Shown here in pieces: positions 17,035 to 60,210 of a stretch of 64,000 nucleotides of DNA (the stretch's first letter is position 1; each line of letters begins with the position of its first letter). Both the position numbers and the translations under genes were made by a program. Below the pieces are notes generated by a model that saw only the letters and a list, made by a program, of their open reading frames with translations, was not told the origin of the DNA and did no database searches. The stretch is from an uncultured Spirochaetota bacterium (lineage in GTDB: Bacteria > Spirochaetota > Brevinematia > Brevinematales > JAOACQ01), in assembly GCA_963835575.1 (NCBI GenBank), contig CAWIGG010000002.1:1344001-1408000 (forward strand). The letters run 5' to 3'.

Positions 17035-17202
17035 GGCAATTGTCACCTCTTAACTGATAATTATACTGCATTTTAAACCAAGCGTCAAATTACATATCAT
17101 AGCTGTCCTTCTAATAATTTTCACAGGAAGGCCTCGCGGATAATTAATAAAAATATTTTATTAACTTAAATAGGGAATCTGTGTAAATCCGTTGAATCTG
17201 CG

Positions 17203-18598
17203 GAGTTATAATAGAAAGTTGTGTATAGGAATAAATATTATAAAAAAGATGGCGTACCCTCTATAATTTATTTACGACAATAAACAAAAGGAGGAATACG
17301 CCATATGCCGAAGCACAACGAAGATTTTAAGCTCTTAGAGGCTTTTAATCAAGATGAAACAGTAGAATTTTTATGTCTTGAAGAATTGGCAAGGATCGGG
17401 GCCAGGGAAATAATCAAGAAGGCTCTGGAAGATGAAATTAATGGGTTTCTTCAGGAGAGAGAGCATTTAACTATCGAAGACGGGAGAAAGGCAATAGTAA
17501 GAAATGGGTATCATAAAGCCCGTCAGATTCTCATTGGTGGAGGGGCTATTGATGTATGTATTCCGAGAACAAGGAACCGACTCGGAGGCGACAATTTTCA
17601 AAGCCTAATAGTACCGCCGTATATGAGAAAAAGCCTGAGAATTGAGGAAGCCATTCCATTGTTGTATCTCTATGGAGTCTCAGAGATGGATATGGAGAAT
17701 GCCTTGAGAGGATTGCTTGGTGAAGAAGCGAAAGGATTATCAGCCTCAAGTATAAGCAGAATGAAACAAGGATGGGGTAAAGAATATGATGAGTGGCGGA
17801 CATCCGATTTAAGCGATAAAAAGTATTGCTATATATGGGTTGACGGCATTTACTTCAATGTACAGGGCAGCGAAGACCGTTTATGCACTCTTGTAATGAT
17901 CGGAGCCAATGAGAATGGTGAAAAGGAGATTATTCTTGTTGAAGAAGGTTACAGAGAGAATTCCGAGACTTGGTTAGGGATATTAAGAAACCTAAAAGAA
18001 AAAGGTTTGAAAGGTCCTATTCTTTTTATCGGAGACGGAAGCCTTGGATTCTGGAAAGCAGCCAAAGAAGTATATCCTGAATCCAGATGGCAGAGATGCT
18101 GGGTTCATAAGATAAAGAACATTCTAAACAAGCTGCCCAAAGTATTACAGTCAAAGGCAAAAGAGATGCTTCATGAGATATGCAATGCTCCTGATAAGGA
18201 TAATGCTATCAAAGCTTTTGAATTATTCCAGGCGGTTTTTAATCCTAAATATCCAGCAGCTGTCGAATGTTTAGAAAAAGATTGGGAGCTTATGATCGAA
18301 TTTTATAACTGTCCGGCGGAACATTGGGTACATATCCGTACGACAAACGTAATAGAATCTACCTTCTCTACAGTTCGATTAAGAACTAAAAAGATGAGAG
18401 GCTGCGGAACCAGGGAAACGATTCTAATAATGGTCTATAAATTACTGGATAAGGCATCCAGGCGATGGAGAAAATTAAGAGGTTATGAAAAGATTTGCCT
18501 TGTATTGGAAGGCGCTGTTTTTGAGAACGGAGAGCTTGTAAAAAAGGCAGCATAAAAAAATGAGAGGGTATGTCATACACAACATTTGACAAAAACTC
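17203..18598 (+). mobile_element. IS256-family insertion sequence (1396 bp) with a 9-bp TSD
   Basis: IRs gagttataatagaaagttgtgtat / atacacaacatttgacaaaaactc; TSD gaatctgcg at 17194-17202 and 18599-18607. Confidence 0.92.
17305..18555 (+). CDS. IS256-family (Mutator) transposase
   Basis: VRNGYH, YIWVDG, IGDGSLGFW, QRCWVHK, HIRTTNVIES; intact 416 aa. Confidence 0.95.
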   Translation: MPKHNEDFKLLEAFNQDETVEFLCLEELARIGAREIIKKALEDEINGFLQEREHLTIEDGRKAIVRNGYHKARQILIGGGAIDVCIPRTRNRLGGDNFQSLIVPPYMRKSLRIEEAIPLLYLYGVSEMDMENALRGLLGEEAKGLSASSISRMKQGWGKEYDEWRTSDLSDKKYCYIWVDGIYFNVQGSEDRLCTLVMIGANENGEKEIILVEEGYRENSETWLGILRNLKEKGLKGPILFIGDGSLGFWKAAKEVYPESRWQRCWVHKIKNILNKLPKVLQSKAKEMLHEICNAPDKDNAIKAFELFQAVFNPKYPAAVECLEKDWELMIEFYNCPAEHWVHIRTTNVIESTFSTVRLRTKKMRGCGTRETILIMVYKLLDKASRRWRKLRGYEKICLVLEGAVFENGELVKKAA

Positions 18599-21700: not shown

Positions 21701-23017
21701 GAGTTTCATATAAAAAATATCCTAACCGGCGAAAAAATTAAAATAAGGAATAATCCCGGAACAAAGCTTCTTCTTCCGAACATGGGCAGGCTTTCCGCCG
21801 AGTTCATCGCGGCCGCCAGCAGAGGAAGCGGCTATAACGCCGAAGCGCTGCCCGTGGCCGACATTCATACGCTTCAACTGGCAAGAAACCTTGCCTCCGG
21901 CAAGGAATGCGTGCCTTCCCTCCTCGTGCTGGGAAGCGTACTGCAGTTTATAAATTCCCCCGGATACAAAAAAGACGAAATATACCTGGTGTTCATTCCG
22001 ATCACAACAGGCCCATGCCGCACAGGGCAGTATTATATATTCTATGAAAACCTTTTCAGGGACCTCAGAATAGACAATGTCGTATTCCTGACCTTAAGTT
22101 CAGATAATTCATACAATGAGCTCGGCCCGAATTTTTCAAGAAACGGTTGGTGGTCAATGATCGTTGCCGATTATATGAAGGATATAGAGATAACCCTCAG
22201 GACTTGCGCCCGGGACCCTGTTGATGCCATGAGAAAATATGACGAACTCTGGCGCTCCATGGTTTCAATAGCTGAAAAAGATATGTCCAAGATTATCCCC
22301 ACGCTTAAGAAAACAGCGATGGAACTGCAAAAAATCCCTCTTAAAAAGAAGCCGGAAGAATGCCCGAAGGTCCTGATAGTCGGCGAAATATATGTCAGGC
22401 GTGATGATTTTGCCGTTGATGAACTGATCCGGCTTTTCAGTAAAAAAGGCATTATCGGTAAAATATCCGGAATTACGGAATGGATTTATTACTGTGATTA
22501 TGTCAGGGAATATCAAATAAAAAAAGAGCTGAAAAAAGAAAAATTCATCCGGAAAATATTTTCAAAACCATTGAGGAACTTGGTTTTTTACAAAATCGAA
22601 CAGCTTTATAAGCATTTTGTTGATTATAAAATCAGAAAAGCCCTGGATGAAAGCAGGCTCCTGCCGCATTATCCCCGCAGCATGTATAAGATCATGAATA
22701 ACGCCAATAATATCTTTGTCGCGGGCGAGCTTAATTCAGAAATTTCAGTATCAAGCGGCGCCGCCGTTACGGCCATGCTGGAAGACTATTCCGGGATCGT
22801 TAATACCTATCCCTTCGCCTGCCTGATTGGAAGGGTCATAGAAGGTCTCATCACGCCCTATTTCAGGGAAAAAAGAATGCCTGTCCTTTCAGTGGAAATT
22901 GACGGCAACCTTTTACCCCCGACAATTATCAATAAACTCGATATCTTCATGCTGAACGTCCTCCGCTACCGCTCAAACCCCGATGCAGAAGACCTGATAG
23001 AGAAAGAGGAAGAATAA
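18741..23017 (+). CDS. 2-hydroxyacyl-CoA dehydratase activase-like multidomain protein (two BcrAD_BadFG domains plus DUF2229), frameshifted at T5 20778-20782
   Basis: GIDIGSTS, KCASGTG, GVDGGSTTTK, EIGGQDAK, NEACSAGTG and NFSCAPDS. One extra T gives YAWFFHELGIE and joins both ORFs. Confidence 0.88.
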
Positions 23018-29294: not shown

Positions 29295-29510
29295 TACTTC
29301 TTTTTTTGACAATTATTGAAACGAAGAGTAAAGTATAACCGATATGGAATTTAATAATATTATCAGTTGATTATAAAAAATCCTTTCGTTTTTTTACGGA
29401 TTTTTGTTCTTTTTCCAAGAAAAAAAGTTTCGTTTTTTTAGTAATTTAAGGTGTCTATATATTATGAATAAAAAGAAGGGGGCTTTTTAGTTCATGATAA
29501 GGAACTGAAC

Positions 29511-32500
29511 ATGAAAGATTTTAATTTGATCAAGGATGATTTTTACAAAAACAATTTGTTTAAAAATATTTCCAAACAGAAGGAAATACCGGTCCTCATC
29601 CTTTTTAAACACAAACAGTACAATGCAAGGATGCTCTTTGATTATAAAAAGGGAAACAATCCTTATTTAAACAGCAATAGTGAAATAATCCCGTTTTCAA
29701 ACGGTGAAAAAATACAAATATCGTTTTTTTATAAAGACATCTTTTTTACTTTTGAGACAGCTATTATTGATTCATCCGAAAGCACTTATCATATTCAGAT
29801 GCCTTCCATGATCCATACTTCATCTAAAAGAATGATCAGCCGCTATACATTCGATGAAACTGTAAATAATTCTGTTTCTTTTCCAAACCGTCCTGAATTA
29901 TTCAAGTTAATTGATATCAGTACCGGCGGTATTTCCTTTATTTCAGAGGAAAAATTTCTCCATAAAAATGAAATCGTCAGAAACATATTGATCAAAATAA
30001 ATGATGACCTTGAGGTTTATACTGACGCGGCCGTGGTACACATTAAAACGATTAAAAGCGAATTAATTTACGGATTGACTTTTCATCAGATGGATTGGCC
30101 GGCCTACAGGAAAATCTTTGCCTTTATTTTCAATAAAAAATATCCTAATTTAAAGCTTTTAAGCGAGTTTTCAAATGATGAGGTAATTCATCTCTATGAA
30201 GAATCCCGCCATATCAGCCTGAAATCGAAGGATGAAGCCGATCAATCCTTTTTTAATATAGTCCGGAACCTTGCCAAAATAAAAAACAATCCCATGCTCG
30301 CGTTCAACCTGGTGTATCAAAAAAGCGGTAAACTGCTCACGATCGGCTCCTCTATCAGAATCTATAACCGGAGTTTTTTAGGCCAGCCGCTCCTCACCGC
30401 TCCGGGCGTTACTCTCAATCCCAGGGCAAAAACCGATGTCTATATCGGATTGGCGGACTTCATACTGAGCCATCCCTATTTTAGATATTATATTACCTAT
30501 ATAATCAGGGATTATGAATGGCATCACGATATTTTTAAAAACATGAACGGATTGATCCATAACCGCGGCAAATTCATTTTTGATGAATTACAGCTATTTG
30601 AATGCGATATGGATAAGATGGAATTACCGGACCAATCCGCGGATTTTGAAGCCGAAGTTCTGGACAATCCGGAAGAATTTATCCGTTATTGCGAAGAGAA
30701 AATGCCGGTCCTGGAAGTTCAAAGTTATAACTATGATATTGATAATTTTGATCTTGAAGCGACAAGCCAGATATACCAGATCCTGGATTTTTATCTGACA
30801 AGAAGATTATGGAGGATCAAAAAAAATAACCGAACGACAGCTTTTGCCGTGGCTGAATCATTTCAGAATGATATTACAATCAATAATATAATGGATTCCT
30901 GCAAATTATATTTTATAGAAGGCATCGAGGACATTCAAGAGGTATTAAAAACCGTACTGCCGGTTGTTTCACAGTTCTACAGTCATTATCAAAAAAGAAT
31001 TTTTAATATCATGTTTAAAATACAAAAGAAAGTAATACAGCCGGTTGAACTGCCCGGATTATATAATAAAGGTCCTCTCAGCAGAGTGTTAATGAACAGG
31101 GATGGTCTCTCTCTCTATAAAAACCTGATGAAGGCTAATTTTGAGTATTACACAAAGTATTACCCTCTCAGCCATCCCCAGAAAGGGATCTGGTATATCG
31201 AAAAAATGTATCCGAATACCAGTATCGGGAATATTGCCGGGACAATAAGATTCAAAAGTAATTTTGATTTCAGCATAATAGAAAAAGCTCTTAATATTGC
31301 GATTGAAAAAAACGATGCTTTACGTCTCAGAATAACAGGAGAAGAAGGAGAACCAAAGCAGTATATAGCGGATTATCAATATAAAAGCTTTACCGTTCAT
31401 GATTTCTGTGATAAAGATAAGAGCGAACTTTATCAATGGGAAGATGAAATGACTAAAATCCCATTTGATTTAATCAATTCGGATTTATTTTATTTCGCAC
31501 TGATTAAAATCAGTCAGACCGAGGTTGGTATTTATGCAAAATTTCATCATTTAATCGCCGATGCATGGACAATTATGCTCCTGGCGGAACAGGTTTTCGG
31601 TTATTGTACCAGATTATTAAATAAAGAAGAGATATCACAGGATAATATGCCTTCTTATATTGATTATATTTTAAAAGAGGAAGAATATAAATATTCAAAA
31701 GTATTTGAGGACGATAAAAAATTCTGGAATGAGAAATTCGCATCAATTCCGGAAGGCATGCACTTTAAACCGAGAAGTACATATTTTACAAGCACAGAGG
31801 CTGTGCGAAAAACATTTATTATTCCAAGTAATTTAGCTAATAATATCTATCATTACTGCAAAAAAACCAATATCTCTGTTCAAACTCTTTTTTTGTCCAT
31901 TCTCATAGTATATATAAGCCGCGTGACTATGAAAAACGACATTTCAATCGGCACTCCTGTATTAAACCGTTCCAGCGCAAAGGACAAAGAGACCGCCGGC
32001 ATGTTCATCAGCCCCATTCCTGTCAGATTGGAAATAAAAAGTGAAATGGATTTTACCTCATTCGCTCAGTATGTACTAAAAGAATGGTATTTATATCTCA
32101 AACATCAAAAATATCCGTATGAGCTGCTTTTAAAGGAATTCCGCGACAGACACAAATTGGCTGAAAATCTGTATGATGTCACTATGTCCTATCAAAACGC
32201 AAAATTTACCGTCGGCAAATATGTGGAGGAATATACGGCACGCTGGCATCCCTATCATCACCAGCCTGAATTATTGAATATACATATTAACGACCGTGAG
32301 GATAACAATCAATTCATTATTAATATTGATTATCTTAAAGAACTCTTCACACCTTCTGAAATAGAAGAATTGTATCAACATATGTTAAATCTTATGAATG
32401 ACGCTATTGAAAACCCCGATAAAAAAACCTGCGATCTGGAGATGCTCTCTGAATCCGAAAAAAAACAGCTTTTATTTGATTTTAATAATACTGAGGCATA

Positions 32501-35500
32501 TTATCCAAAACGTAAAACAATACACCAGTTATTTGAGGAATGCGCCGATAAAAACCCGGATCATACCGCTGTGGTTTTTGAAAACCAGGAATTGACATAC
32601 CGTGAGCTGGACAACAGGGCAAATCAACTGGCGCAATATCTATTGACTGAGAATAATATTCAGCCGGAAATGCCTGTAGGGATTTTAACAGATAATTCCT
32701 TATTCCAGGTCATAGCCATCCTGGGAATATTGAAAACCGGAGGCGCTTATATTCCAATTTTTCCAGATAATCCGGAAGAACGGATAAAAATGATTGTCAA
32801 TGATTCCTCCATCAGTATTCTGGTTTCCACAAAAGCATTTATCGGAATTTTAAACTCTCTGCAGGAGGATTGCCCCTCTTTTAAAGCCTATTTATGTCTG
32901 GATGATGAAAATGATAATACTGATATACTGTCAATAAAGAAAAAATCAGTAAATAATGATAAGAAAATAAAAATTCGGCATGGACTTAAAGAGTTAAACC
33001 GGTTTAATTTTGACAGGCCTTCGGTAAAACTAAACCTTAATAATTTGGCATATATAATTTATACATCAGGCACAACCGGCAATCCGAAAGGCGTCATGAT
33101 TGAGCACAAAAGCATTTCCAGAACCATCCAGTGGAGAAGTCGGGAATACAAGCTGGGCCAGAAAGACGTTATCCTCCAGCTTTTTTCCTATTCGTTTGAC
33201 GGTTTTTTAACCAGCTTTTTTACTCCCATTATATCCGGTTCAAAAGTATTTCTTTTAAATAATTCCGAAGTCAAGGACCCCTTATGCATAAAAGAATATA
33301 TTGCCGCAAAAAAAATCACGCATTTTATCATAATACCAACTTTATTCTCGGCTCTTTTGGATTTATTGACCCGTGAAGAAACACAATATTTAAAAATTGT
33401 CACCCTCGCCGGTGAAAAAACAAATCCTTCCTTAATTAACAAATTTAAAGAAAAAAAATTCCATTTTGAATTAGTAAATGAATACGGCCCCACAGAAAAC
33501 TCAGTCGTTTCAACCATCTTAAGAAATATGCAAAGTGCGGACAATATAACAATAGGGAAACCCGTTGCAGATACTAATATTTATATTTTAAACCGTTATA
33601 ATCAATTACAGCCTATAGGATTGGCCGGAGAGTTGTGCCTGTCGGGAAAGCGCCTTGCCAGGGATTATTTAAACCGTCCAGAATTGTCAGCCGATAAATT
33701 TATTCCCAATCCGTACAGGAAGAATGAAAGACTGTATAAAACCGGAGACCAGGTACAATGGCGCAGCGATGGAAATATCGAGTATCTGGGAAGGATTGAT
33801 AACCAGGTGAAATTAAGGGGTTTCAGGATAGAATTGGAGGAAATAGAAAACCAATTGTTAAAGAATGAAAATGTTAATGAGACGGCTGTTATTGCTGTTG
33901 AAAATAATGCCGGAGAAACGTCTCTCATCGCCTATTATGTTTCAAAAAATAATATATCCGCTTCAGAATTAAGAGAATATCTATCCCTTAAACTACCCTA
34001 TTATATGATCCCGGCGAAATTTATTATGGTTGATAATATCCCGAGAACATCCAGCGGTAAAATTGATAATAAAGTACTGGAAATCTCTACGGAAACTCCA
34101 TTAAAAGAAACAAATTATGCCGCACCTGAAAATGAAACAGAAAAAATATTGGTAAAAATCTGGGAAGAAGCTCTGGGTATCGAGAAAATCGGGATAAATG
34201 ACGATTTTTTTGAATTGGGCGGCGATTCCATCAAAGCAATTCAAATCAGTTCCCGCCTTCAGGAATACGGCTTTAAATTAAGAATAAACGAAATGTTCCA
34301 GCATACTACAATTGCGGGGCTCCGGGATGAAATAAACAAATCCCAAGTAAATAAGATTGACGATAATATAATTACCGGAATTGTTGAACTGACTCCAATA
34401 CAGAAATGGTTTTTCCAGAATAAATTCAAAAATAATCATTTTAATCAATCAGTAATGATATTTAACAAAGATGGATTTCTTGATGCGCTCTTAAGAAAAC
34501 TATTCAGTAAAATGACCGAACATCATGATGCCTTACGAATGACCTATAATTACACAAAAGATACAGTCATTCAGCAGAATAGAGGCCTTGAAGAAGCAGA
34601 GTTTTTCACATTAAAACAATTTGATTTAAGAAAAGAACTTGATTTTTCAAAAAAGATCGCAGATGAAGCAAATATTATACAAACCAGTATAGACTTGACG
34701 CATGGACCTTTATTAATGGCCGGATTATTTAAAACGGTATCCGGCGATTATTTGCTTATAGTTATCCATCACCTGGTAGTTGATGGAGTTTCCTGGCGGA
34801 TATTATTGGAAGATTTCATGCGCGGTTATTCACAAGCTCTCAAAAATGAAGATATCCGATTCCAAAATAAAACAACTTCCTTTAAAGAATGGGCCGGCAG
34901 GTTAAAGGAATATTCGGAAGGGTATGAGATACTCAACGAATTAACTTACTGGAAGCAGATTGAAGAGGTTCAAGTAAGACCTCTTCCGGTAGATCATGCC
35001 GCATCGCAAAACAAATATAAGGATTCTCATTCAATAAATTTAACTTTGTCCGAAACAGAAACGAATCTACTTCTCACAAAGGTCAATAAAGCCTATCAAA
35101 CGGAAATAAACGATATATTGCTGACGGCATTAGGTTTGGCCGTAAAAGAATGGACAGGTGAAAATCTCTGCCTGTTTAATCTGGAGGGACATGGCCGTGA
35201 AGAAATATTAAAAAACCTGGATGTTACAAGAACTGTGGGCTGGTTTACTTCGATTTACCCTGTTTTGCTGAAAATGAACCTGCATGGATTATCTAAACAA
35301 ATAAAATCAGTAAAGGAAAACCTGAGGAATATTCCTAATAAAGGGATCGGTTATGGAATACTGAAGTATCTCACACCGGCAGAAAAAAAGGAAAGACTGG
35401 AATTTACAGTTATTCCTGAAATCGGCTTTCTTTTTTTAGGGGAACTCGGACAGGAAAGTTATATGAAAAATATTTATGATGTATCTCTTGTTCCCGCCAA

Positions 35501-36881
35501 GCAATCCATCAGTCCGGATTTTGACAGGCAGTCAAAATTGGAGATCGACAGTATGATTATTTCAAAGAAATTAGTATTTAACTTTAATTACAATAAAAAA
35601 GAATACGATCAAACGACTATTCAAAAATTAGTTGTTAGTTATAAAATGAATTTATTAAAAATAATCAAGCATTGTGTTTCAAAAGAGAGCCGGTTAAAAT
35701 CAATAGAAAGAGTTGATAGTCAATTAAAAATAGAGTATGTTTCAGACAAACTGTATTTCAAGAATGTTATGATAACAGGCTCGACCGGCTTACTGGGCGC
35801 TCATTTATTAAATGAATTAGTAAACACAACCGAAGCCGATATCTATTGTCTGGTACGGGGGGAAAATTTAAAAGATGCCGAAAACAGACTGGTTAAGACA
35901 TTAAAATTTTATTTTAATGATGAATTGGACAAATTATTTAATAATAGAATATTTGTATTAAATGGGGATATTACTCTGGATCGTCTGGGTTTATCTGAGG
36001 CTGATTATAATCAAATCGGCGGAAAAATAGATATTGTTTTTCATACTGCGGCCTTAGTCAAGCATTATGGACAATACACGGAATTTGTGAAGGTGAATGT
36101 ATCTGGAACAGAAAATATAGTCCGGTTTTCAAACAATTTCCATAAGAGAATAATTTATATTTCTACAACCAGGGTTTCGGGAACCTTATTAAAGCAGAAA
36201 ACCGATAACCTTCATTTTACAGAAAACGATTTCGACATCGGTCAGAATTATCAAGAAAGTGTTTATGTGAAAAGCAAATTTGAAGCGGAAAAAATAGTTG
36301 CGGATGCTGTACATACCGGCCTGCAGGCTGTTGTTATGAGAGTCGGAAATCTTACAGGCAGATTTTCGGACGGACTATTTCAACAGAATATAAAAGATAA
36401 TATGAATTATAATGTCATAAAATCCATATTGATACTGGGAGCTATCCCTGAAGAATTATCCGGAATTGACATGGAATTCACCCCAGTTGATTTATGCAGC
36501 AAAGCTATATTGAAAATATCAACAATAAAAGAATCTTATGGGAAAAAATACCATATATTCAACCATCATTACATCACAACCATTAATTTCCTGAATATGA
36601 TAAAAGAATTGAATTATAAAGTGAAAATATTAAAAAAAAGTGGCTTTCAAAATTATATCCGCGACCTTTCTCAAACCGGTGATAAAAAGGAAGAAGTCAA
36701 TTACCTGAAAAATGTTTTTGAATATGAAAAATTACTTGACGACCATTATAAAGTGCAAATTGAATCCGGAATCACACAGGAATTCCTGAAAAGAACCGGT
36801 TTTGAATGGCCTGAAGTTAACAGGGATTATATTTTAAAAATCATTCAATATATGCAGAAGACCGGTTTTTTAAAACCATGA
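29511..36881 (+). CDS. Single-module NRPS: PilZ / GNAT-like / starter-C / A / T / E / thioester reductase
   Basis: PilZ: KRMISR and DISTGG. C: YPLSHPQ..HHLIADAW. A: YTSGTTGNPKG, NEYGPTE, YKTGD, QVKLRGFRIE. T: FFELGGDSI. E: PIQKWF, HHLVVDGVSW, EGHGRE, RTVGWFT, PNKGIGYG. R: ITGSTGLLG, YVKSK. Confidence 0.92.
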   Translation: MKDFNLIKDDFYKNNLFKNISKQKEIPVLILFKHKQYNARMLFDYKKGNNPYLNSNSEIIPFSNGEKIQISFFYKDIFFTFETAIIDSSESTYHIQMPSMIHTSSKRMISRYTFDETVNNSVSFPNRPELFKLIDISTGGISFISEEKFLHKNEIVRNILIKINDDLEVYTDAAVVHIKTIKSELIYGLTFHQMDWPAYRKIFAFIFNKKYPNLKLLSEFSNDEVIHLYEESRHISLKSKDEADQSFFNIVRNLAKIKNNPMLAFNLVYQKSGKLLTIGSSIRIYNRSFLGQPLLTAPGVTLNPRAKTDVYIGLADFILSHPYFRYYITYIIRDYEWHHDIFKNMNGLIHNRGKFIFDELQLFECDMDKMELPDQSADFEAEVLDNPEEFIRYCEEKMPVLEVQSYNYDIDNFDLEATSQIYQILDFYLTRRLWRIKKNNRTTAFAVAESFQNDITINNIMDSCKLYFIEGIEDIQEVLKTVLPVVSQFYSHYQKRIFNIMFKIQKKVIQPVELPGLYNKGPLSRVLMNRDGLSLYKNLMKANFEYYTKYYPLSHPQKGIWYIEKMYPNTSIGNIAGTIRFKSNFDFSIIEKALNIAIEKNDALRLRITGEEGEPKQYIADYQYKSFTVHDFCDKDKSELYQWEDEMTKIPFDLINSDLFYFALIKISQTEVGIYAKFHHLIADAWTIMLLAEQVFGYCTRLLNKEEISQDNMPSYIDYILKEEEYKYSKVFEDDKKFWNEKFASIPEGMHFKPRSTYFTSTEAVRKTFIIPSNLANNIYHYCKKTNISVQTLFLSILIVYISRVTMKNDISIGTPVLNRSSAKDKETAGMFISPIPVRLEIKSEMDFTSFAQYVLKEWYLYLKHQKYPYELLLKEFRDRHKLAENLYDVTMSYQNAKFTVGKYVEEYTARWHPYHHQPELLNIHINDREDNNQFIINIDYLKELFTPSEIEELYQHMLNLMNDAIENPDKKTCDLEMLSESEKKQLLFDFNNTEAYYPKRKTIHQLFEECADKNPDHTAVVFENQELTYRELDNRANQLAQYLLTENNIQPEMPVGILTDNSLFQVIAILGILKTGGAYIPIFPDNPEERIKMIVNDSSISILVSTKAFIGILNSLQEDCPSFKAYLCLDDENDNTDILSIKKKSVNNDKKIKIRHGLKELNRFNFDRPSVKLNLNNLAYIIYTSGTTGNPKGVMIEHKSISRTIQWRSREYKLGQKDVILQLFSYSFDGFLTSFFTPIISGSKVFLLNNSEVKDPLCIKEYIAAKKITHFIIIPTLFSALLDLLTREETQYLKIVTLAGEKTNPSLINKFKEKKFHFELVNEYGPTENSVVSTILRNMQSADNITIGKPVADTNIYILNRYNQLQPIGLAGELCLSGKRLARDYLNRPELSADKFIPNPYRKNERLYKTGDQVQWRSDGNIEYLGRIDNQVKLRGFRIELEEIENQLLKNENVNETAVIAVENNAGETSLIAYYVSKNNISASELREYLSLKLPYYMIPAKFIMVDNIPRTSSGKIDNKVLEISTETPLKETNYAAPENETEKILVKIWEEALGIEKIGINDDFFELGGDSIKAIQISSRLQEYGFKLRINEMFQHTTIAGLRDEINKSQVNKIDDNIITGIVELTPIQKWFFQNKFKNNHFNQSVMIFNKDGFLDALLRKLFSKMTEHHDALRMTYNYTKDTVIQQNRGLEEAEFFTLKQFDLRKELDFSKKIADEANIIQTSIDLTHGPLLMAGLFKTVSGDYLLIVIHHLVVDGVSWRILLEDFMRGYSQALKNEDIRFQNKTTSFKEWAGRLKEYSEGYEILNELTYWKQIEEVQVRPLPVDHAASQNKYKDSHSINLTLSETETNLLLTKVNKAYQTEINDILLTALGLAVKEWTGENLCLFNLEGHGREEILKNLDVTRTVGWFTSIYPVLLKMNLHGLSKQIKSVKENLRNIPNKGIGYGILKYLTPAEKKERLEFTVIPEIGFLFLGELGQESYMKNIYDVSLVPAKQSISPDFDRQSKLEIDSMIISKKLVFNFNYNKKEYDQTTIQKLVVSYKMNLLKIIKHCVSKESRLKSIERVDSQLKIEYVSDKLYFKNVMITGSTGLLGAHLLNELVNTTEADIYCLVRGENLKDAENRLVKTLKFYFNDELDKLFNNRIFVLNGDITLDRLGLSEADYNQIGGKIDIVFHTAALVKHYGQYTEFVKVNVSGTENIVRFSNNFHKRIIYISTTRVSGTLLKQKTDNLHFTENDFDIGQNYQESVYVKSKFEAEKIVADAVHTGLQAVVMRVGNLTGRFSDGLFQQNIKDNMNYNVIKSILILGAIPEELSGIDMEFTPVDLCSKAILKISTIKESYGKKYHIFNHHYITTINFLNMIKELNYKVKILKKSGFQNYIRDLSQTGDKKEEVNYLKNVFEYEKLLDDHYKVQIESGITQEFLKRTGFEWPEVNRDYILKIIQYMQKTGFLKP

Positions 36882-36885
36882 GTTT

Positions 36886-38544
36886 TTAGATATGAATTTG
36901 TTTTACAAACTCTTCTGACGGTATTTTTTTCTCAAAACCAAATCCTGCCGAAATTTCGCTCAAAAGAGAAGCCGCTTCCTGAGCCGAGCCTTTTTTTAAA
37001 AGATTGAGAGTAAGTTTATGCCTTAAACGGAAAATTGCTTTAAGTTTGGAATCTCCCAGACTGATATTGAAATAAGCATTTTCATTTGAATAAGCATAGG
37101 GAATCTCGGTGACCATTTCAAAAAGCTTATAGCAATATTCCAGGGCCTTTTTGGAATTCATTGAATAGTGAGACCAATTTTCCATAATACCCTCGATTTT
37201 CCATTTCAATCGGTATTCGGGTAATGAAAGTTCGCTGACAGGTGAAATAATTAATGGGAAAAGAATATAATTTGTCATCCTGGTTTCTAGGCTGTTCAGA
37301 AATAATGCCGTATTTTTAATTGTAGCCTCATTCTCACCCGGAAATCCGACAATCAATGATAGAAATACGGCAATATTGGCTTTATCCAGAAGCTCAATCC
37401 CCGTTTTTGCGGCTGAAAGGTCCAGTTTTTTATTCATTCTCTCAAGCTGGGATTGGTCTCCGGATTCAAGCCCTATCCATGAAGTCATTAAACCGGATTC
37501 TTTTATCAGATCAATGTTATCACTGTTAATTGATGCCGCCCGCATAAATCCCGACCACATAATGGAGCATTTCAAGTCGATAAAAGCCCCGCAAAGCTCT
37601 TTAGTTCGCTGTTGATTGTATAAACAATTGTCGTCTGTCAGATATAATATATTGGGTTTATTATTTAAATTATTCCTGTTTTTTATCAGTTCAATTTCCT
37701 TTTTTATGCTTTCAACCGACCTTAAAAACAGCTTCGGATACAGGAACCAGAAGTCGCAGAACTTGCATCTATATGGACAACCGATGGAAGTGCGGATGGG
37801 AACTTTGAGCGGAAGATTTTCAACCAGGTCCCACCGTGTAATATCCTCATTATAGTCTACAGTTTCGTTTTCATGCTTTGTAAAAAAAAATATTCCGCTT
37901 TTATCCGGAATTGCAATATTAGGTATATCTGCATACTTCGCTTTTTTTCCTTTATTAAATTCATCCAGCAGGGGAAACAAACTGGAACTGCCATGAGGAG
38001 AAACAATGAGAATATCTGCGGGAATTTCATTTTTGTCGCATGGAAAAAGGACATAATTTTTGTTTTCATCAGACCAATTATTTATTTCGTCAGAGGACTG
38101 AAATTCCCCGTATATGCAGTAGCTTTTCCATAAAAATATACCGCCGATTATTATAAACACATCCGGAAGAGTTTTTCTAACATCTTTGACTAATTCAGAA
38201 AGCGTATCTTTTCTTCTTAATCATGGTCGTTGAAATGCAGCTACAGCCGCCCCTTTTTTTTGCAGTTGTTCCAGAGATTCTTTTTCAGTGTCAGACAATA
38301 GCATAGTGTCATATCCGTGTGAATGAAGGAGCCCTTCCAGATAATAGCCGGCAGAAGGGACTGTTTCCTGAAGGGTGATAAGTCTCTGAGCAGGTATTTT
38401 ATATAAGTCATATGAGTTTTTGCATAGATTAAAAAGAAGCCGGATGCTCAGTTCATCCTGATTGATCTTCGGATTAAATTCCAGATTTATATTATTCATT
38501 TTCGGATCAGAAACAGGAGCGATAATACCTATGATATTCGGCAT
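36886..38544 (-). CDS. Radical SAM protein with a B12-binding-like N-terminus; disrupted near 38220-38262 (probable sequence error)
   Basis: TSIGCPYRCKFC, TDDN, IGLESG, IVGFPGE. The N-terminal ORF has SAGYYLEGLLHSHGYD, and CISTTMI lies in an alternate frame at the break. Confidence 0.78.
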
Positions 38545-38838: not shown

Positions 38839-41800
38839 ATGGAGAAAGTATTAAATTATACTCTTATCAAACAAATCGGCGAAACCAGTAAATCAACAAT
38901 TTATAAAGCAAAAAAAGATAGTGAAGACAAAACCGTTATCATCAAATCCTTGAATATCAGTTATCCTTCAGCTTCTGAAATAGCCCGGTTCAAGCAGGAA
39001 TTCGAACTGGTCAGGAAACTGGATATTGACGGAATAATTAAAGTCATTGATATACTGGAGTTAAATGATAAATACTACATCATACAGGAAGATACAAACT
39101 ACACTACTTTGAAAGCACTCATTAAAAATAATAAACTCGGCATACGGCAATTCCTTGAAATAGCCGTTCCACTTTCCGATATTCTGGGCAGCATTCATAA
39201 AAACAACATTATTCACAGGAATATAAAACCGCAAAATATCCTGATTGATGAAAAGAAAAAAAAAGTAAAGATAACAAACTTTAATATTGGAAATTTGCTG
39301 ACCCATGAAAACGAGGAGATATATAATCCCTTTGTCATTGAAGAAACGCTGCCTTATATTTCTCCGGAGCAGACCGGCAGAATGAACCGGACTGTTGATT
39401 ACAGAACGGATCTCTATTCTCTCGGCGTTACTTTTTATGAAATGTTGACCGGCAAAACTCCTTTTAAATCATCTGATCCTATGGAGATCATTCATTCGCA
39501 TATCGCGAAAGCTCCTCCAAACCCGGCAAACATCGATCCTGCCATACCTGGGGTTATTTCGGAAATGGTCATTAAATTATTATCAAAGGGCGCGGAAGAA
39601 AGATATCAGAACAGCTTCGGCCTCCATGCGGATTTGCAGGATTGTTTGCATCAGCTTGATAATAAGGGTCAAATCGAGACATTTGAACTGGCAAAAAAGG
39701 ATGTTTCCATAAAATTTAATATACCTCAGGGAATATTCGGAAGAGAGAAAGAGCTTTCAATTCTTATGGACGCATTTAAACGCATCAGCTCCGGAAAAAG
39801 CGAAATCATGCTGGTTTACGGCCAGCCGGGCATTGGGAAATCCCTCCTTATTAACGAAATTCACAAACCCATTGTGGAAAAAAGAGGCTACTTTATTTCG
39901 GGAAAATACGATCAATTCCGGAGGGATGTGCCCTACAGCACTCTTATCCAGGCATTTCAAAGCCTTGTCAGGCAAATAATCTCGGAATCCAGAGAAAAAA
40001 TCAATATATGGAAAGAAATGTTATTAAAAGAACTGGGAAATAACGGCAGGATCATAACAGATGTGATACCGGAGGTCCAGCTTATCATCGGAGAGCAGAA
40101 GGAAATCCCGGTCCTGACGCCGGAGCAATCACAGAAACGGTTTAATATCGTATTCAAAAATTTTATCCGTGTTTTCGCAACAAAAGAACATCCCCTTGTC
40201 CTGTTTTTTGACGACATTCAGTGGGCGGATTACGCGAGTTTATTGTTTATTAAATCGATTATAACAGATCCGGATATTAATTATCTATTATTGATCGGAT
40301 CATACCGGGATACTGATGTCAGTTCTTCCCACCCGTTGATGCTGATCATTGATCAAATTAAAAAGGAAGGTGCAGTTGTTAATAGTTTATCGGTTCCGCC
40401 GTTGGATATTCAATATGTGACTCAATTGATCATGAATTTTATGCGGATCAATGAGAATTTAACCCGCAAACTTTCCGAGCTCATTTATAAAAAAACAAAC
40501 GGCAATCCTTTCTTTGTCAATCAGTTTTTAAAAACCCTTTATGATGAAAATTTAATTGAACTGGATTCTCTTAAAGGGTGGATATGGGACTTGGAAAAAA
40601 TCAACAGGCTGCAGGTAACGGATAATGTTGTGGAGATGATGGCCGGAAAAATTAATAAACTTCCAAAACCAACTCAGGAGATAATAAAAATATGCTCCTG
40701 CATCGGCAACCGCTTCGAACTGGAAACCCTGTCTTCAATATTTGGGAAATCAATAGAAGAAACGCTTCATGACCTTTCTATAGCTATTGAAGAAGGTCTG
40801 GTCTATCTTTACGGCAATTTGTACCGTTTTTATCATGACAGGATTCAGGAAGGCGCTTATTCATTAATTTCTGAAAAGGAAAAAGCGGAACTGCATTACA
40901 GAATAGGAAAATTAACGCTGAAACATACTAAAAAGGAGGACCTCAAGGATAAAATCCTTTACATAGTCGATCAGCTCAACGCGGGGATTAGCTTAATCGC
41001 CTCGGAAGAAGGAAAGTTTGAGACGGCCCAATTGAATTTACAGGCCGGCGTTAAGGCCAAATCAGCGGCGGCTTATGAATCCGCACTCAATTACCTGAGA
41101 ACCGGCATTAAACTGATGGGAGAAGACGGTTGGAAAAAACAATATGATCTGATCCTATCGCTTTATCTTGAAGCAGTGGAATCAGCCTATCTGAGTACTT
41201 ACTATGAGGAAATGGAACGCCTGTCTGAAAAAGCCCTGAAGCATACCCGTTCGCGGCTGGATGAGATCAGAATTTATACAACTCAGATCAATACTCTATT
41301 AGCACAGAACAGATTGGTCGATGCCATTATGACAGGCCTGAAAGTATTGCGGCTGTTAGGCGTCAGATTTCCAATAAAGCCGAATATATTGAATATTTTA
41401 TCCGGTTTTATCAGGACAAAAATCCTTTTAGCCGGTAAAAAGATAGAAAGTTTACAGGATCTTCCTATGATGATGGATAATAATATTTTATCTATCATGC
41501 GGATTTTGTCCTCGGTATCCTCAGCCGCTTATTTTTCCTTACCGAATTTTCTTTCCTTAATTATTTTTAAATCGATCTTTTTCTCAATTAAATATGGAAA
41601 TTCTTTTATATCTCCGTTCGTTTACGCTGGTTATGGTCTGGCACTCTGCAGTCTGGGTGATATTGATCATGGTTATCAATTTGGAAAATTGGCGTTAAAC
41701 CTGACGGAAAAGATACAACAAAAGGAATATAAATCGAAAACCATCTTCACTGTCAATACTTTTATTAATCACTGGAAAGAACATATCCGGAAAACCATGG

Positions 41801-43995
41801 AACCGTTATTATCAGCCTACCAAATCGGCCTTGAAACAGGGGATGTTGAGTTCGCGGCGCATTCAATAGGAAATTATTGTTCACATGCTTTTTTTATTGG
41901 ACAAAATCTGGAATTGTTTTATCAGCAATCGATTAAGTATGGTAATATTGTGGAAAAGTTAAAACAGGAGGTTCTGCTGATATGGATGAAAATGCTTCAG
42001 CAGACTTTATTGAACTTAATGGTACATTCTCAGGACCCATGTCAATTAAAGGGCGAATGTTTTGATGAGGACAAAGTTTTACCAGTCCTCTTGAAAGCAG
42101 AAGATAGAAACATTATTTTTTCTTTATATCAAAATAAAATGATTTTGTGCTATTTTTTTCAAAATGATCAGGAGGCATTAAAATACGCCGTCGAAGCTCA
42201 AAAATATATCGATGCGATGGCAGGGCAGGTAAATCCTTTTTATTTCTATGATTCTTTAATAAGAATTAGTAATCTTGAAAAAGTTAAAAGAAATAAGCGG
42301 AAGCAGTTTTTAAAGAAAATTAAAAAGAATCAAAAAATTTTAAAAAAATGGTCTGATCATGCCCCAATGAATTTCCTGCACAAATATTACCTGGTGGAAG
42401 CGGAATTAGCGGGTTTGAAAGGGAATGACCTGAAGGCTATGGATTATTACGACAGGGCGGTCCAGGGGGCCAAACAAAATGAGTATATTAATGATGAAGC
42501 CGTCGCCAATGAACTGGCGGCCCGGTTCTATTTGAAAATAAAGAAAGAGAATATCGCCAGGCTCTATATGACAGAAGCTTACAATAACTATTACCGGTGG
42601 GGAGCTTATGCTAAATCCAAGGAACTGGAAAACAAATATCCCAATCTGATTGCCTCATTCCGGAGAGGAAAAAGAACCAGAAAAACCGATCTGGATTTAA
42701 GCATCAATGAAGCTGTACTGGAAACCCTCGACTTATCAACCATTATTAAAGCCTCAAAGGCTCTATCCAGTGAAATTGAACTGGGGCCTCTGCTCGAAAA
42801 AATCATGATGATATCCATCGAAAACGCCGGCGCTCAAAAAGGCGTCCTTATTCTCTGTAATGAAAATGATAATAAGTTTTATATCGAGGCGGAAGGTGAA
42901 ATTGATAAAAAAATTGAACCTTTTAAATCTCTCCCGGTGGAAGAAAGTAATCATTTACCTGTCTCAGTTATCAATTTTGTCGCTAAAACAATTGAAAATG
43001 TCGTTCTTGAAGATGCCTGCCGGAAAGGCCCGTTTCTGCAGGACCCTTATATTTCAAATAACCAGATTAAATCCATTCTCTGCGCGCCAATCATTGATAA
43101 AGGCAGCATAATCGGCATCATTTATCTTGAAAATAATCTGCTGAATAATGCCTTCACGCCGGAAAGGCTCGAACTCCTCCGCATTCTCTCATCTCAGGCG
43201 GCCATTTCCATTAATAATACGAGGCTGGTGGAAAGGGAAAGACAAAACGCCGCTCTGCAGAAAGAGATAGAAATGGCGCAGAAAATACAGAATTCTCTTT
43301 TACCGGCCAATATTCCGGATATAAAAAATGTTGAAATCGCTTTTAAATATGTTCCCATGACGGGTATCGGAGGCGATTTTATCAGCGTTTTCTATGATGA
43401 AAAAGGCCAGAAACTCGGGCTTTTTATCTGCGACGTTTCCGGTCATGGGGTTCCCGCCGCCCTCACGGCTTCCATGATCAGCATGGCGCTTGATTTTTTC
43501 TGGAAAAAGCAAATCGACCATCCTTCTAAAGTTTTAATGGAAATGAAAAATAACCTCAAGGAAAAAATGGGAGGTAATTTTTTTACCGCCAGCATCTGCG
43601 TTTTAAATCTGGCTGACGGAGAGCTGATCAACGCTTCCGCGGGGCATCCTCCTGTTTTTATTATCAGGAACAATAAAAATATAGAATCGGTCCAATCAAA
43701 AGGCGGCCTCATCAGCGATTTCATAGATTTAAATGTCCAGGAAACAAAAGTTAAATTGAAAAAGGGCGATATGATAATCCTTTATACCGACGGCATTACC
43801 GAAGCGGAAAATCCCGATAAAGTTCAGCTGGGAACCGATGATGAGAAATTCAAAGACTGGGTGAAAAATATCGCTGTAAAATCTTCTTCCATCTCCCAGT
43901 TCTGTCAGGACATCTTTGATAATGTTATCACATTTACGCAAAAAGAAACACTGCATGATGATTTCACCCTGCTTGCCGTAAAATATAACCGGTAA
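38839..43995 (+). CDS. Multidomain sensor: Ser/Thr kinase-like / AAA ATPase / TPR-like / GAF / PP2C (SpoIIE) phosphatase
   Basis: YISPEQTGRMNR, GQPGIGKS, FFDDIQWAD, GNPFF, GAF KSILCAPI..YLENN, GGDF, CDVSGHG, YTDGITEA, HDDFT. Confidence 0.92.
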   Translation: MEKVLNYTLIKQIGETSKSTIYKAKKDSEDKTVIIKSLNISYPSASEIARFKQEFELVRKLDIDGIIKVIDILELNDKYYIIQEDTNYTTLKALIKNNKLGIRQFLEIAVPLSDILGSIHKNNIIHRNIKPQNILIDEKKKKVKITNFNIGNLLTHENEEIYNPFVIEETLPYISPEQTGRMNRTVDYRTDLYSLGVTFYEMLTGKTPFKSSDPMEIIHSHIAKAPPNPANIDPAIPGVISEMVIKLLSKGAEERYQNSFGLHADLQDCLHQLDNKGQIETFELAKKDVSIKFNIPQGIFGREKELSILMDAFKRISSGKSEIMLVYGQPGIGKSLLINEIHKPIVEKRGYFISGKYDQFRRDVPYSTLIQAFQSLVRQIISESREKINIWKEMLLKELGNNGRIITDVIPEVQLIIGEQKEIPVLTPEQSQKRFNIVFKNFIRVFATKEHPLVLFFDDIQWADYASLLFIKSIITDPDINYLLLIGSYRDTDVSSSHPLMLIIDQIKKEGAVVNSLSVPPLDIQYVTQLIMNFMRINENLTRKLSELIYKKTNGNPFFVNQFLKTLYDENLIELDSLKGWIWDLEKINRLQVTDNVVEMMAGKINKLPKPTQEIIKICSCIGNRFELETLSSIFGKSIEETLHDLSIAIEEGLVYLYGNLYRFYHDRIQEGAYSLISEKEKAELHYRIGKLTLKHTKKEDLKDKILYIVDQLNAGISLIASEEGKFETAQLNLQAGVKAKSAAAYESALNYLRTGIKLMGEDGWKKQYDLILSLYLEAVESAYLSTYYEEMERLSEKALKHTRSRLDEIRIYTTQINTLLAQNRLVDAIMTGLKVLRLLGVRFPIKPNILNILSGFIRTKILLAGKKIESLQDLPMMMDNNILSIMRILSSVSSAAYFSLPNFLSLIIFKSIFFSIKYGNSFISPFVYAGYGLALCSLGDIDHGYQFGKLALNLTEKIQQKEYKSKTIFTVNTFINHWKEHIRKTMEPLLSAYQIGLETGDVEFAAHSIGNYCSHAFFIGQNLELFYQQSIKYGNIVEKLKQEVLLIWMKMLQQTLLNLMVHSQDPCQLKGECFDEDKVLPVLLKAEDRNIIFSLYQNKMILCYFFQNDQEALKYAVEAQKYIDAMAGQVNPFYFYDSLIRISNLEKVKRNKRKQFLKKIKKNQKILKKWSDHAPMNFLHKYYLVEAELAGLKGNDLKAMDYYDRAVQGAKQNEYINDEAVANELAARFYLKIKKENIARLYMTEAYNNYYRWGAYAKSKELENKYPNLIASFRRGKRTRKTDLDLSINEAVLETLDLSTIIKASKALSSEIELGPLLEKIMMISIENAGAQKGVLILCNENDNKFYIEAEGEIDKKIEPFKSLPVEESNHLPVSVINFVAKTIENVVLEDACRKGPFLQDPYISNNQIKSILCAPIIDKGSIIGIIYLENNLLNNAFTPERLELLRILSSQAAISINNTRLVERERQNAALQKEIEMAQKIQNSLLPANIPDIKNVEIAFKYVPMTGIGGDFISVFYDEKGQKLGLFICDVSGHGVPAALTASMISMALDFFWKKQIDHPSKVLMEMKNNLKEKMGGNFFTASICVLNLADGELINASAGHPPVFIIRNNKNIESVQSKGGLISDFIDLNVQETKVKLKKGDMIILYTDGITEAENPDKVQLGTDDEKFKDWVKNIAVKSSSISQFCQDIFDNVITFTQKETLHDDFTLLAVKYNR

Positions 43996-44037: not shown

Positions 44038-44436
44038 TCACACCACCGTACGTACGGTTCCGTATACGGCGGTTCCAAAATATAATTTCTGATAAATACA
44101 AATCTTGTTCAGCATCGATACGAGTCCCATACTGTCGAATAATTTCTTAGGAAAGGCGATGTTCATATGTTTGTTGATGAAGCCTTTTAGCTGTTTTACA
44201 GTGACTCCGTCAACTCCCGCCGCCCCCTTATTGCTTACCACCCTGTGATAAGCTTCCAGCATGTTCTCGCGTTTGACCAGACGCTCTATTAAATTTGTTT
44301 CATCCGGTGTACTCCTTCTTTGACTCTCTGCACGGATACACGCGCTTTGGCTATTCTTCGGAATTCCGTCCCTATCCTTTGTCAAAGCCGGAAAGTTTCC
44401 TTCCGCTTCTGCGTAAGTTACCGTGTCAGGATTCAT
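44038..44436 (-). pseudogene. Remnant of a group II intron RT/maturase
   Basis: RT0-like RENMLEAYHRVVSNKGAAGVDG is fused directly to the C-terminal-like NIAFPKKLFDSMGLVSML; no YADD motif. Confidence 0.85.
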
Positions 44437-59747: not shown

Positions 59748-60210
59748 TTAAGAATCCTTTAATGACATTGAATTCATACAGGGCTTTTTTGGAACTGCTT
59801 TATATCATAGATGATACCGGGGTTTTTGTCAAAACGAAGGAAATTCTGCAAAGGCTAAAAACCATAAATATTTTATTGAAATTGTTATAAAAGTATTCAG
59901 ATGAACGCAAAATAATCCATTCCTTTTATTGCGCTTTTTTTAATTCTGGAATAGAATTTCCTCAGTTGGGGATTCGTTTTTTCATTCAATTATATTATTG
60001 ACGGCACGCTATTACCGCTTTTACAAATACCGTTTCAGAAAGGAGTTTTACTCCCATTTAAAATAAAATTATAAACAGGGTTAATTACATCTTTATAAGA
60101 TATTTATTTACAGGGGCTTTAGTTAGAGGGGTTAAATGCTCTTGATTTTTAATTGTTTATATATCAGACTATGCTATAACTAAAGAGCTATTAGTATATT
60201 GGAGATAGTT

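What the first reader, a model, noticed from the sequence alone, without database searches (positions are those of the whole stretch)
29511..36881. PilZ-fused single-module NRPS: candidate c-di-GMP-gated N-acyl-D-tyrosinal/ol synthetase
Seen in the sequence: about 545 non-NRPS residues precede the C domain, and they carry both PilZ motifs, RxxxR (KRMISR, ~29829) and DxSxxG (DISTGG, ~29913). The C domain start (YPLSHPQKGIWYIEKMYPNTSIGNIAG) resembles surfactin SrfAA-type starter (lipo-initiation) C domains. A manual alignment to GrsA gives the A-domain code DGTITAEVVK, and a full E domain and an R domain follow. Established: PilZ binds c-di-GMP, DGTITAEVAK is the fengycin/plipastatin Tyr code, starter C domains acylate the first residue, and R domains release aldehydes or alcohols. 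Inference: a second messenger directly controls an enzyme that makes a lipo-amino aldehyde or alcohol (signal or protease-inhibitor-like). I know of no characterised NRPS with this layout.
Basis: partly seen in the sequence, partly recalled or inferred. Interest (0 to 1): 0.9.

Follow-up and report, generated by a model that had tools for sequence, protein, structure and literature searches.

The report
c-di-GMP-sensor-capped lipopeptide signal synthetase
A spirochaete peptide-synthetase gene begins with a receptor domain for the bacterial messenger c-di-GMP and a likely inactive acyltransferase-fold domain; it is predicted to make a fatty-acyl D-tyrosine aldehyde or alcohol, and because its relatives usually sit beside a membrane sensor kinase and often a c-di-GMP-degrading regulator, the family likely forms an undescribed cell-to-cell signalling loop in which the messenger would control the signal-making enzyme directly.

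Summary
The 2456-aa ORF and its parts are real. C groups with starter domains; code DGTITAEVVK matches a fengycin-type Tyr module at 9 of 10 positions; E and R are intact. The fusion is natural: 32 of the best 150 relatives carry the cap directly before a C domain. Fused caps keep the PilZ motifs (35 of 37) but mostly lose the GNAT motifs of free caps (5 of 39 vs 30 of 33); this protein has lost them. In 18 of 24 informative capped loci an intact membrane histidine kinase follows, in 9 a REC-DUF3369-HD-GYP phosphodiesterase lies alongside, and the same kinase family flanks NRPS genes in 19 of 37 further loci. Best reading: a c-di-GMP-gated synthetase of an acyl-amino aldehyde/alcohol signal within an NRPS-kinase-phosphodiesterase circuit. 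This copy is an orphan: no cognate kinase was found in its genome. Binding, gating, product and signalling are all untested. No paper found.

The parts
29511..36881 (+). Whole gene: PilZN-PilZ-tandem GNAT-C(starter)-A-T-E-R, 2456 aa; the only NRPS found in the genome
   Evidence: (C, E and R each match only this place in G000)
29511..29810 (+). YcgR-N/PilZN-like beta-barrel (res. 1-100)
   Evidence: model pLDDT 93.8; YcgR-N 5y6h Z 11.6 on res. 1-106, MrkH 5ejl Z 13.8, rmsd 3.1 over 207 res.
29811..30146 (+). PilZ domain (res. 101-212) with R107xxxR111 (29829) and D135xSxxG140 (29913)
   Evidence: Pfam PF07238 above cut-off; family profile hits MrkH/YcgR, E 3e-13; motif conservation
30141..31145 (+). 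Tandem GNAT-fold domain (res. 211-545), likely catalytically degenerate in this protein
   Evidence: 9emd histidine acetyltransferase Z 15.0, rmsd 4.4 over 265 res., other tandem GNATs Z 11-13.5; Foldseek E 1e-11; free-cap motifs SGY, [HQ][HQ]L, GxNLxN read SRH, QPL, DITINN here
31155..32474 (+). Starter-type condensation domain, HHLIADA at res. 679
   Evidence: second His and Asp invariant in 21 of 21 family C domains
32523..34070 (+). Adenylation domain, code DGTITAEVVK, predicted Tyr
   Evidence: 55-56% core identity to two Bacillus modules coded DGTITAEVAK, 29-38% to the other Bacillus modules; core motifs
34149..34322 (+). Carrier (T) domain, GGDSI
34392..35690 (+). Epimerisation domain
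   Evidence: (35-42% to Bacillus E domains)
35757..36878 (+). Thioester reductase (R) domain, TGSTGLLG and YVKSK, directly after E
   Evidence: (TIGR01746 above cut-off); direct T-E-R in 11 other proteins
29306..29334 (+). Sigma70-like promoter candidate upstream (weak)
   Evidence: 10 of 12 matches; 2 sites found against 1.3 expected from shuffles

Best explanation
This single-module NRPS carries an N-terminal YcgR-type PilZ receptor and a likely inactive tandem-GNAT spacer; it is predicted to make an N-acyl-D-tyrosinal or -tyrosinol, c-di-GMP likely binds the cap and would throttle synthesis, and in related cassettes the product likely acts as a signal sensed by the neighbouring membrane kinase. 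Steps: (1) A loads Tyr on T (inferred from the code); (2) the starter C adds an acyl group from acyl-CoA (inferred from C class; chain unknown); (3) E inverts the residue (motifs shown, activity inferred); (4) R releases aldehyde or alcohol with NAD(P)H (inferred); (5) c-di-GMP closes PilZN-PilZ and the pseudo-GNAT relays this to the C domain four residues past its last helix (inferred); (6) in the full cassette product -> kinase -> REC-DUF3369-HD-GYP -> lower c-di-GMP -> more product, an autoinduction loop (inferred). I take c-di-GMP to be inhibitory (about 65%), because uncapped and PilZ-deleted versions persist as intact genes beside the kinase. Odds by step: binding 0.85, effect on catalysis 0.6, Tyr 0.8, signal role in the family 0.55, lower for this orphan copy.
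For: Fold and motifs of PilZN-PilZ. RxxxR plus [DN]xxxxG in 35 of 37 fused caps that have a PilZ domain, at about 28% mean identity. GNAT motifs in 30 of 33 free caps but 5 of 39 fused caps at equal overall divergence. Host uses c-di-GMP: 39 GGDEF and 14 PilZ matches; two ACPS-family PPTases. Intact membrane kinase directly downstream in 18 of 24 informative capped loci, REC-DUF3369-HD-GYP in 9 of 24; HD, GYP and the phospho-acceptor Asp invariant in the 8 of those proteins aligned. The same kinase family lies beside an NRPS in 19 of 37 loci chosen for lacking a known cap; one fully read example is C-A-T-R, kinase, phosphodiesterase in a row (L130). 22 different first-module codes in 39 capped enzymes, as expected for signal dialects.
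Against: No binding or activity data. G000 has no match to the family kinase sensor; its seven HisKA_7TM proteins and one DUF3369-HD-GYP protein are unlinked. No kinase beside 3 of 24 capped loci (window, L094, L097), remnants only in 2, a different kinase in 1. 18 of the 37 cap-free kinase loci showed no NRPS (4 are too short to tell); the four genes-upstream checks made there (3 loci read) showed unrelated enzymes. Fused caps form essentially one cluster (3 changes against 24 shuffled), so motif loss and synteny are not independent events. PilZ is deleted in 5 capped loci (L106-L110). Free caps sit beside the same kinase and phosphodiesterase with no NRPS (L037, L079, L080, L083; G441 has no C-domain match), so the cap may act on the two-component system rather than on the synthetase.
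Confidence: 0.5

Rival explanations
1. The cap binds c-di-GMP but acts as a docking or localisation device: it tethers the synthetase to the kinase, the phosphodiesterase or the membrane, and does not change catalysis.
For: Free caps occur with the same kinase and phosphodiesterase and no NRPS; YcgR-type proteins act through protein contacts (recalled).
Against: Eight cap positions are conserved in fused but not free caps, suggesting a new role tied to the NRPS; the window protein keeps perfect PilZ motifs although no cognate kinase was found.
Confidence: 0.2
2. The GNAT is an active, c-di-GMP-controlled acyltransferase as proposed for PixB; it acylates the product or a protein, and the NRPS domains are not gated.
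For: Tandem GNAT fold with best match to a small-molecule N-acetyltransferase; R283, Y285, Y330, W337, R431, E449, D462 are kept in this protein; PixB precedent (PMC8316039, passages).
Against: Three motif sets nearly fixed in free caps are lost here and in most fused caps; a starter C with intact His and Asp already supplies N-acylation. Which GNAT residues are catalytic is not known, so the loss is suggestive only.
Confidence: 0.12
3. The cap is a passenger: two neighbouring cassette genes fused once and the cap does nothing for the synthetase; the window copy is a recently acquired orphan.
For: Single fusion cluster; uncapped enzymes of the same C clade are commoner (81 of 149 genomes have a starter-type match at E<=1e-55 against 23 with a cap); PilZ deleted in 5 loci; low GC3 (below 91% of long ORFs).
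Against: PilZ motifs kept in 35 of 37 fused caps while neighbouring GNAT motifs decayed; the cap stayed through many swaps of A domains, module numbers and release domains.
Confidence: 0.1
4. The enzyme is gated as above but its product is a weapon or surface compound (peptide-aldehyde protease inhibitor or surfactant), and the kinase and phosphodiesterase only relay outside cues to it.
For: NRPS-made dipeptide aldehydes are reported as the active forms for ruminopeptin (PMC12327764, passages); orphan state here; 18 of 37 cap-free kinase loci lack a visible NRPS.
Against: Persistent adjacency of one membrane sensor family to small NRPSs of varied specificity in two Bacillota groups and spirochaetes; no transporter or resistance gene recurring in the loci scanned.
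Confidence: 0.15
5. Assembly chimera or chance in-frame join.
For: No read or contig bridged the cap-C junction.
Against: Same junction in 31 other proteins among the best 150 hits and in 26 other loci; gene lies inside a 2.05-Mb contig.
Confidence: 0.01

Closest known systems
YcgR / MrkH / PP4397 / MotI (PilZN-PilZ c-di-GMP receptors)
   Same: Two-barrel fold and both motifs; the model matches c-di-GMP-bound MrkH (TM 0.74-0.75, rmsd 3.3-3.8) better than apo MrkH (TM 0.39, rmsd 12-13), though predictors often return bound-like states.
   Different: Those act on motors or DNA; here the unit is fused through a GNAT fold to an NRPS.
Myxococcus xanthus PixB (PilZ-PilZ-GNAT; PMC8316039, passages read)
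   Same: c-di-GMP receptor fused to a GNAT fold.
   Different: PixB needs its acetyltransferase domain and has no NRPS; homology of PixB to this cap was not tested (only a 0.86 atlas lead to a 557-aa Myxococcota PilZ cluster).
Caulobacter HfsK (tandem GNAT c-di-GMP effector; PMC5362036, passages read)
   Same: Tandem GNAT under c-di-GMP control, reported as inactivated by the ligand.
   Different: Binds without a PilZ domain; acts on holdfast; no NRPS.
Clostridial reductase-terminated NRPSs: ruminopeptin (PMC12327764) and the C. saccharoperbutylacetonicum N-acyl dipeptidyl alcohol NRPS (PMC11063209); passages read
   Same: Small anaerobe NRPSs giving (acyl-)peptide aldehydes or alcohols.
   Different: Two residues rather than one; no sensor cap reported in the passages seen; here T-E-R adds a predicted D-residue.
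Fengycin/plipastatin synthetases (names and residue order recalled; the records L113/L115 do not name these genes)
   Same: Starter C (35%) and an A-T-E module with code DGTITAEVAK (55-56% core identity).
   Different: Ten-module cyclic lipopeptide with TE release; no cap.
Xanthomonas RpfF-RpfC-RpfG quorum sensing (recalled; one listing seen) and RpfY-family regulators (10.1101/2021.11.05.467447, passages read)
   Same: Signal synthase, membrane kinase and REC-HD-GYP phosphodiesterase as one circuit; partners here have the RpfY layout.
   Different: Synthase is an NRPS, not a crotonase-like enzyme; predicted feedback is by c-di-GMP on the synthase itself.

Membership tests
PilZ c-di-GMP receptors (YcgR type) | PilZ barrel above the Pfam cut-off with a PilZN barrel before it | tested here: met
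PilZ c-di-GMP receptors (YcgR type) | RxxxR and (D/N)xSxxG motifs | tested here: met
   R107, R111, D135, S137, G140
PilZ c-di-GMP receptors (YcgR type) | Measured c-di-GMP binding | not testable with these tools
   needs ITC or DRaCALA
Tandem GNAT acyltransferases | Two GNAT folds in tandem | tested here: met
Tandem GNAT acyltransferases | Intact acyl-CoA/acceptor site | tested here: inconclusive
   motifs fixed in free caps are lost here; no Pfam or NCBIfam GNAT hit; catalytic residues of the family unknown
PixB | Sequence homology to PixB and two PilZ domains plus a required acetyltransferase | not tested
   no PixB sequence was fetched
Starter (lipo-initiation) C domains | Closer to N-terminal acylating C domains than to internal C domains; active-site His and Asp | tested here: met
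   35-37% vs 19-22%; HHLIADA; pairwise identity only, no reference tree
Starter (lipo-initiation) C domains | Acyl transfer from acyl-CoA | not testable with these tools
   needs assay
Tyr-activating A domains (fengycin type) | Code DGTITAEVAK | tested here: met
   9 of 10 positions; that this module loads Tyr is recalled, and the code was found in 0 papers
Reductase-terminated NRPSs | C-terminal R domain with Rossmann and YxxxK motifs | tested here: met
Quorum-sensing synthase-kinase-HD-GYP circuits (Rpf-like) | Synthase linked to a membrane kinase and a REC-HD-GYP regulator, in the family | tested here: met
Quorum-sensing synthase-kinase-HD-GYP circuits (Rpf-like) | Same linkage at this locus | tested here: not met
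   neighbours are an ABC transporter and a radical SAM gene; family sensor not found in G000, 94% complete
Quorum-sensing synthase-kinase-HD-GYP circuits (Rpf-like) | Product is exported and activates the kinase | not testable with these tools
   needs genetics and ligand assays

The most novel reading that the evidence does not exclude
An undescribed quorum-sensing family of anaerobes (clostridia-like Bacillota and spirochaetes): small NRPSs make N-acyl amino or dipeptide aldehydes/alcohols in at least 22 specificity dialects, a new membrane sensor kinase reads them and drives an RpfY phosphodiesterase, and a YcgR-pseudo-GNAT cap lets c-di-GMP act directly on the assembly line, closing the loop; the free cap would be the ancestral c-di-GMP-controlled GNAT signal synthase that the NRPS replaced.
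Probability: 0.35. Interest if true: 0.92.

Novelty: new variant of a known kind. Interest (0 to 1): 0.78.

Why it matters
Known control of natural-product assembly lines by c-di-GMP is, to my knowledge, through transcription; a receptor built into the enzyme would be direct allosteric control and is testable with one purified protein. The neighbourhood points to a signalling chemistry for cellulolytic and syntrophic anaerobes, names a candidate ligand class for an uncharacterised membrane sensor family and for RpfY regulators, and offers a portable c-di-GMP switch for NRPS engineering.

Tried and rejected
Cap alone against near-length proteins by word search: no hit; the profile search found them. 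Cap against PDB sequences: nothing; NCBIfam on cap halves: nothing. Complex prediction of cap with C domain: no answer, score 0.00, controls not run; neither for nor against. Sequencing runs: no RNA holder listed; one run held short identical pieces scattered over the gene, none bridging a junction. Literature: PilZ+nonribosomal peptide synthetase+c-di-GMP 8 papers, PilZ+NRPS 35, PilZ/GNAT/tandem/c-di-GMP/acyltransferase 16, six-term clostridial NRPS signalling search 0, DGTITAEV 0, for neighbours; judged from listings, none describes this fusion or cassette; subscription papers and supplements were not seen. FeeM/LuxI-type synthases and FemX were not among the rows shown in the fold searches, which does not exclude them. 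T-E-R as a local deletion artefact: rejected, 11 of the 120 listed hits span the same junction. Own earlier-findings look-ups by sequence and long word list: nothing. A full gene map of L116-L153 and a cap-kinase co-phylogeny were not obtained (script machine lost); only L121, L129, L130, L147 and L151 were listed gene by gene.

Full report
Observation. The ORF 29511-36881 encodes 2456 residues without a stop. Pfam gives PilZ (130-207, above cut-off), two condensation-family domains, A, T and a reductase; the second condensation-family domain is an epimerase. All core motifs of C, A, T, E and R are present. It is the only NRPS found in the 4.39-Mb genome. The host is a spirochaete by four FlaA matches and no Spo0A, with 39 GGDEF, 14 PilZ and 2 ACPS-family matches.

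The cap. A model of residues 1-545 (105-sequence alignment, pLDDT 93.8) splits into a YcgR/MrkH-type PilZN-PilZ unit (1-213; MrkH Z 13.8, rmsd 3.1 over 207) and a tandem GNAT fold (211-535). Folded alone, the second part (pLDDT 93.6) matches a histidine acetyltransferase at Z 15.0 (rmsd 4.4 over 265, 8% identity) and other tandem GNATs at Z 11-13.5. No sequence library names it. A shared fold shows no function.

The family. A profile of four caps found 384 representatives at E<=0.001. Of the best 150, 32 have the cap directly before a C domain; 17 of these end in R, 3 in TE, 2 in E, and 10 are cut or unresolved; many others are free caps of about 535-550 aa, and distant hits are about 690-aa PilZ proteins. 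Only the window protein has cap-C-A-T-E-R, but direct T-E-R occurs in 11 of 120 listed hits to the junction, one an uncapped C-A-T-E-R (P0158). The cap was found in 3 of 41 relatives including G000, 6 of 58 genomes of one Bacillota class and 23 of 149 of a Clostridia order; in 401 genomes of the host phylum, strong matches to this cap type were confined to G000, G003 and G008. In the tree the window cap sits with Bacillota caps rather than with G008's, without starred support; with low GC3 this suggests, but does not show, transfer.

Selection on the cap. After dropping partial rows (84 kept) and clustering at 70% (72 rows: 39 fused, 33 free), RxxxR plus [DN]xxxxG is present in 35 of 37 fused caps with a PilZ domain and 33 of 33 free caps. 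GNAT motifs behave differently: [HQ][HQ]L at 292-294 together with N456 is present in 30 of 33 free and 5 of 39 fused caps, though mean identity within the GNAT halves is the same in both groups (29-33%). The window protein has lost these and the SGY motif at 232-234, while keeping R283, Y285, Y330, W337, R431, E449, D462. Reading: receptor kept, enzyme likely decayed. Caveats: fused caps cluster in the tree (3 changes against a shuffled mean of 24), so this may be one event; 'free' for database proteins rests on their length; catalytic residues are unknown. Five related loci (L106-L110) have lost the PilZ domain but keep the NRPS frame and the kinase.

The product. C1 is 35-37% identical to the N-terminal C domains of two Bacillus NRPSs and 19-22% to internal ones. 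The code DGTITAEVVK differs at one position from two Bacillus modules that are also the closest in the core (55-56% against 29-38%); these lie in a cluster I recognise from memory as fengycin/plipastatin, at the Tyr position before E. So N-acyl-D-Tyr aldehyde or alcohol is the prediction; chain length, D-selectivity of R and oxidation state are open. First-module codes across 39 capped enzymes fall into 22 kinds.

The neighbourhood. Of 27 capped loci mapped (window included), 3 end at the contig edge. Of 24, an intact membrane histidine kinase follows directly in 18 (15 of one uncharacterised sensor family, 3 HisKA_7TM), remnants in 2, another kinase in 1, none in 3 (window, L094, L097); 9 hold an intact REC-DUF3369-HD-GYP gene. 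Of 11 informative free-cap loci, 4 have kinase plus phosphodiesterase downstream, 1 a 7TM-HD-GYP fusion, 1 a phosphodiesterase upstream, 5 neither. The phosphodiesterases keep HD, GYP and the receiver Asp in 8 of 8 aligned; this layout is the RpfY family, two members of which have shown activity (10.1101/2021.11.05.467447, passages). The sensor family was found in 34 of 149, 16 of 58 and 3 of 41 genomes. Of 37 sensor loci fetched because no cap was known beside them (fragments of the hit lists left out), 19 have an NRPS next to the kinase: 17 by starter-C coordinates within about 4.5 kb, 2 by the A-domain motif; one of those two may be the tail of a capped gene. 4 are too short; 14 show none, and three of these read gene by gene had unrelated neighbours. 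L130 is C-A-T-R, kinase, phosphodiesterase, 39% identical to the window enzyme over C-A-T. Many of these genomes are kin, so the counts overstate independence. G000 itself lacks the family sensor; its HisKA_7TM and DUF3369-HD-GYP genes are unlinked.

Mechanism. Shown: anatomy, folds, motif retention and loss, synteny. Inferred: c-di-GMP binding, relay through the pseudo-GNAT to the C domain, the product, its sensing by the kinase, and feedback through the phosphodiesterase. I favour inhibition by c-di-GMP, since cap-less and PilZ-less genes persist. The window copy would then be an orphan that still ties synthesis to the host's large c-di-GMP network. Rivals are a docking role, an active GNAT, a passenger cap and a non-signal product.

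Comparison. PixB and HfsK are precedents for c-di-GMP control of GNAT folds (PMC8316039; PMC5362036; passages). Ruminopeptin and a clostridial N-acyl dipeptidyl alcohol are precedents for the chemistry (PMC12327764; PMC11063209; passages). Ten library searches (listings) showed no PilZ-capped NRPS and no such cassette; supplements and subscription papers were not seen. Earlier notes of this scan describe PilZ inserted inside A domains, a different layout, unchecked by me.

Verdict. Real, undescribed in what I could search, richer than first read; new variant of a known kind; interest 0.78.

Noticed in passing
L034:19201-20280 and alignment A6: About 360-aa multi-helix membrane sensor region of the partner kinases has no Pfam match and only hypothetical atlas neighbours; found in 34 of 149, 16 of 58 and 3 of 41 genomes. 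Candidate new sensor family.
   Followed up: partly
L130:6581-10936, L147:15581-19900: Uncapped single-module starter C-A-T-R enzymes of the same C clade (40-50% identity) are common in the Clostridia order searched, often beside the sensor kinase.
   Followed up: partly
L079:114-6186: Free cap followed by a ThiF-family gene, the sensor kinase and the phosphodiesterase in a genome with no C-domain match: ThiF may replace the NRPS as activating enzyme.
   Followed up: partly
L098:8976-9767, L099:9687-10475, L100:10030-10821: A weak Leu/Phe-tRNA-protein-transferase-like gene lies within one to three genes of free caps.
   Followed up: no
L111:10377-12467, L112:7476-9557: Distant 694-697-aa PilZ-GNAT proteins in other spirochaetes are followed by GAF hybrid kinases.
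   Followed up: no
L103:4779-14901 (P0036): Cap-C followed by about 600 residues with no Pfam match, then a T-C-T-C-A-T protein.
   Followed up: no
P0050, P0061, P0074, L035:5634-7991: Capped NRPSs with a methyltransferase inside the A domain.
   Followed up: no
L007-L010 (G008); L090-L092, L103, L105 (G487): G008 has at least three capped NRPS loci; G487 has several copies, most frameshifted, with kinase remnants.
   Followed up: partly
window 36886-38160 (-): Radical SAM gene converging on the NRPS with a 4-base gap; best but sub-threshold match to B12-dependent P-methyltransferases, starting at model position 168, so probably lacking the N-terminal part.
   Followed up: no
window 15733-17046 (-): HupF/HypC domain fused to a radical SAM-BATS protein.
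   Followed up: no
window 18741-23017 (+): CoA-activase-type gene in two overlapping ORFs (overlap 20774-20900), possibly frameshifted, downstream of a Mutator transposase at 17305-18555.
   Followed up: no
window 38839-43995 (+) and 60199-63831 (+): Ser/Thr kinase-AAA-GAF-SpoIIE protein; sugar-binding-histidine kinase-receiver-GGDEF hybrid 23 kb downstream of the NRPS.
   Followed up: no
window 44038-44436 (-): Weak match to a group II intron reverse transcriptase N-terminus, E 1e-5; likely a fragment.
   Followed up: no
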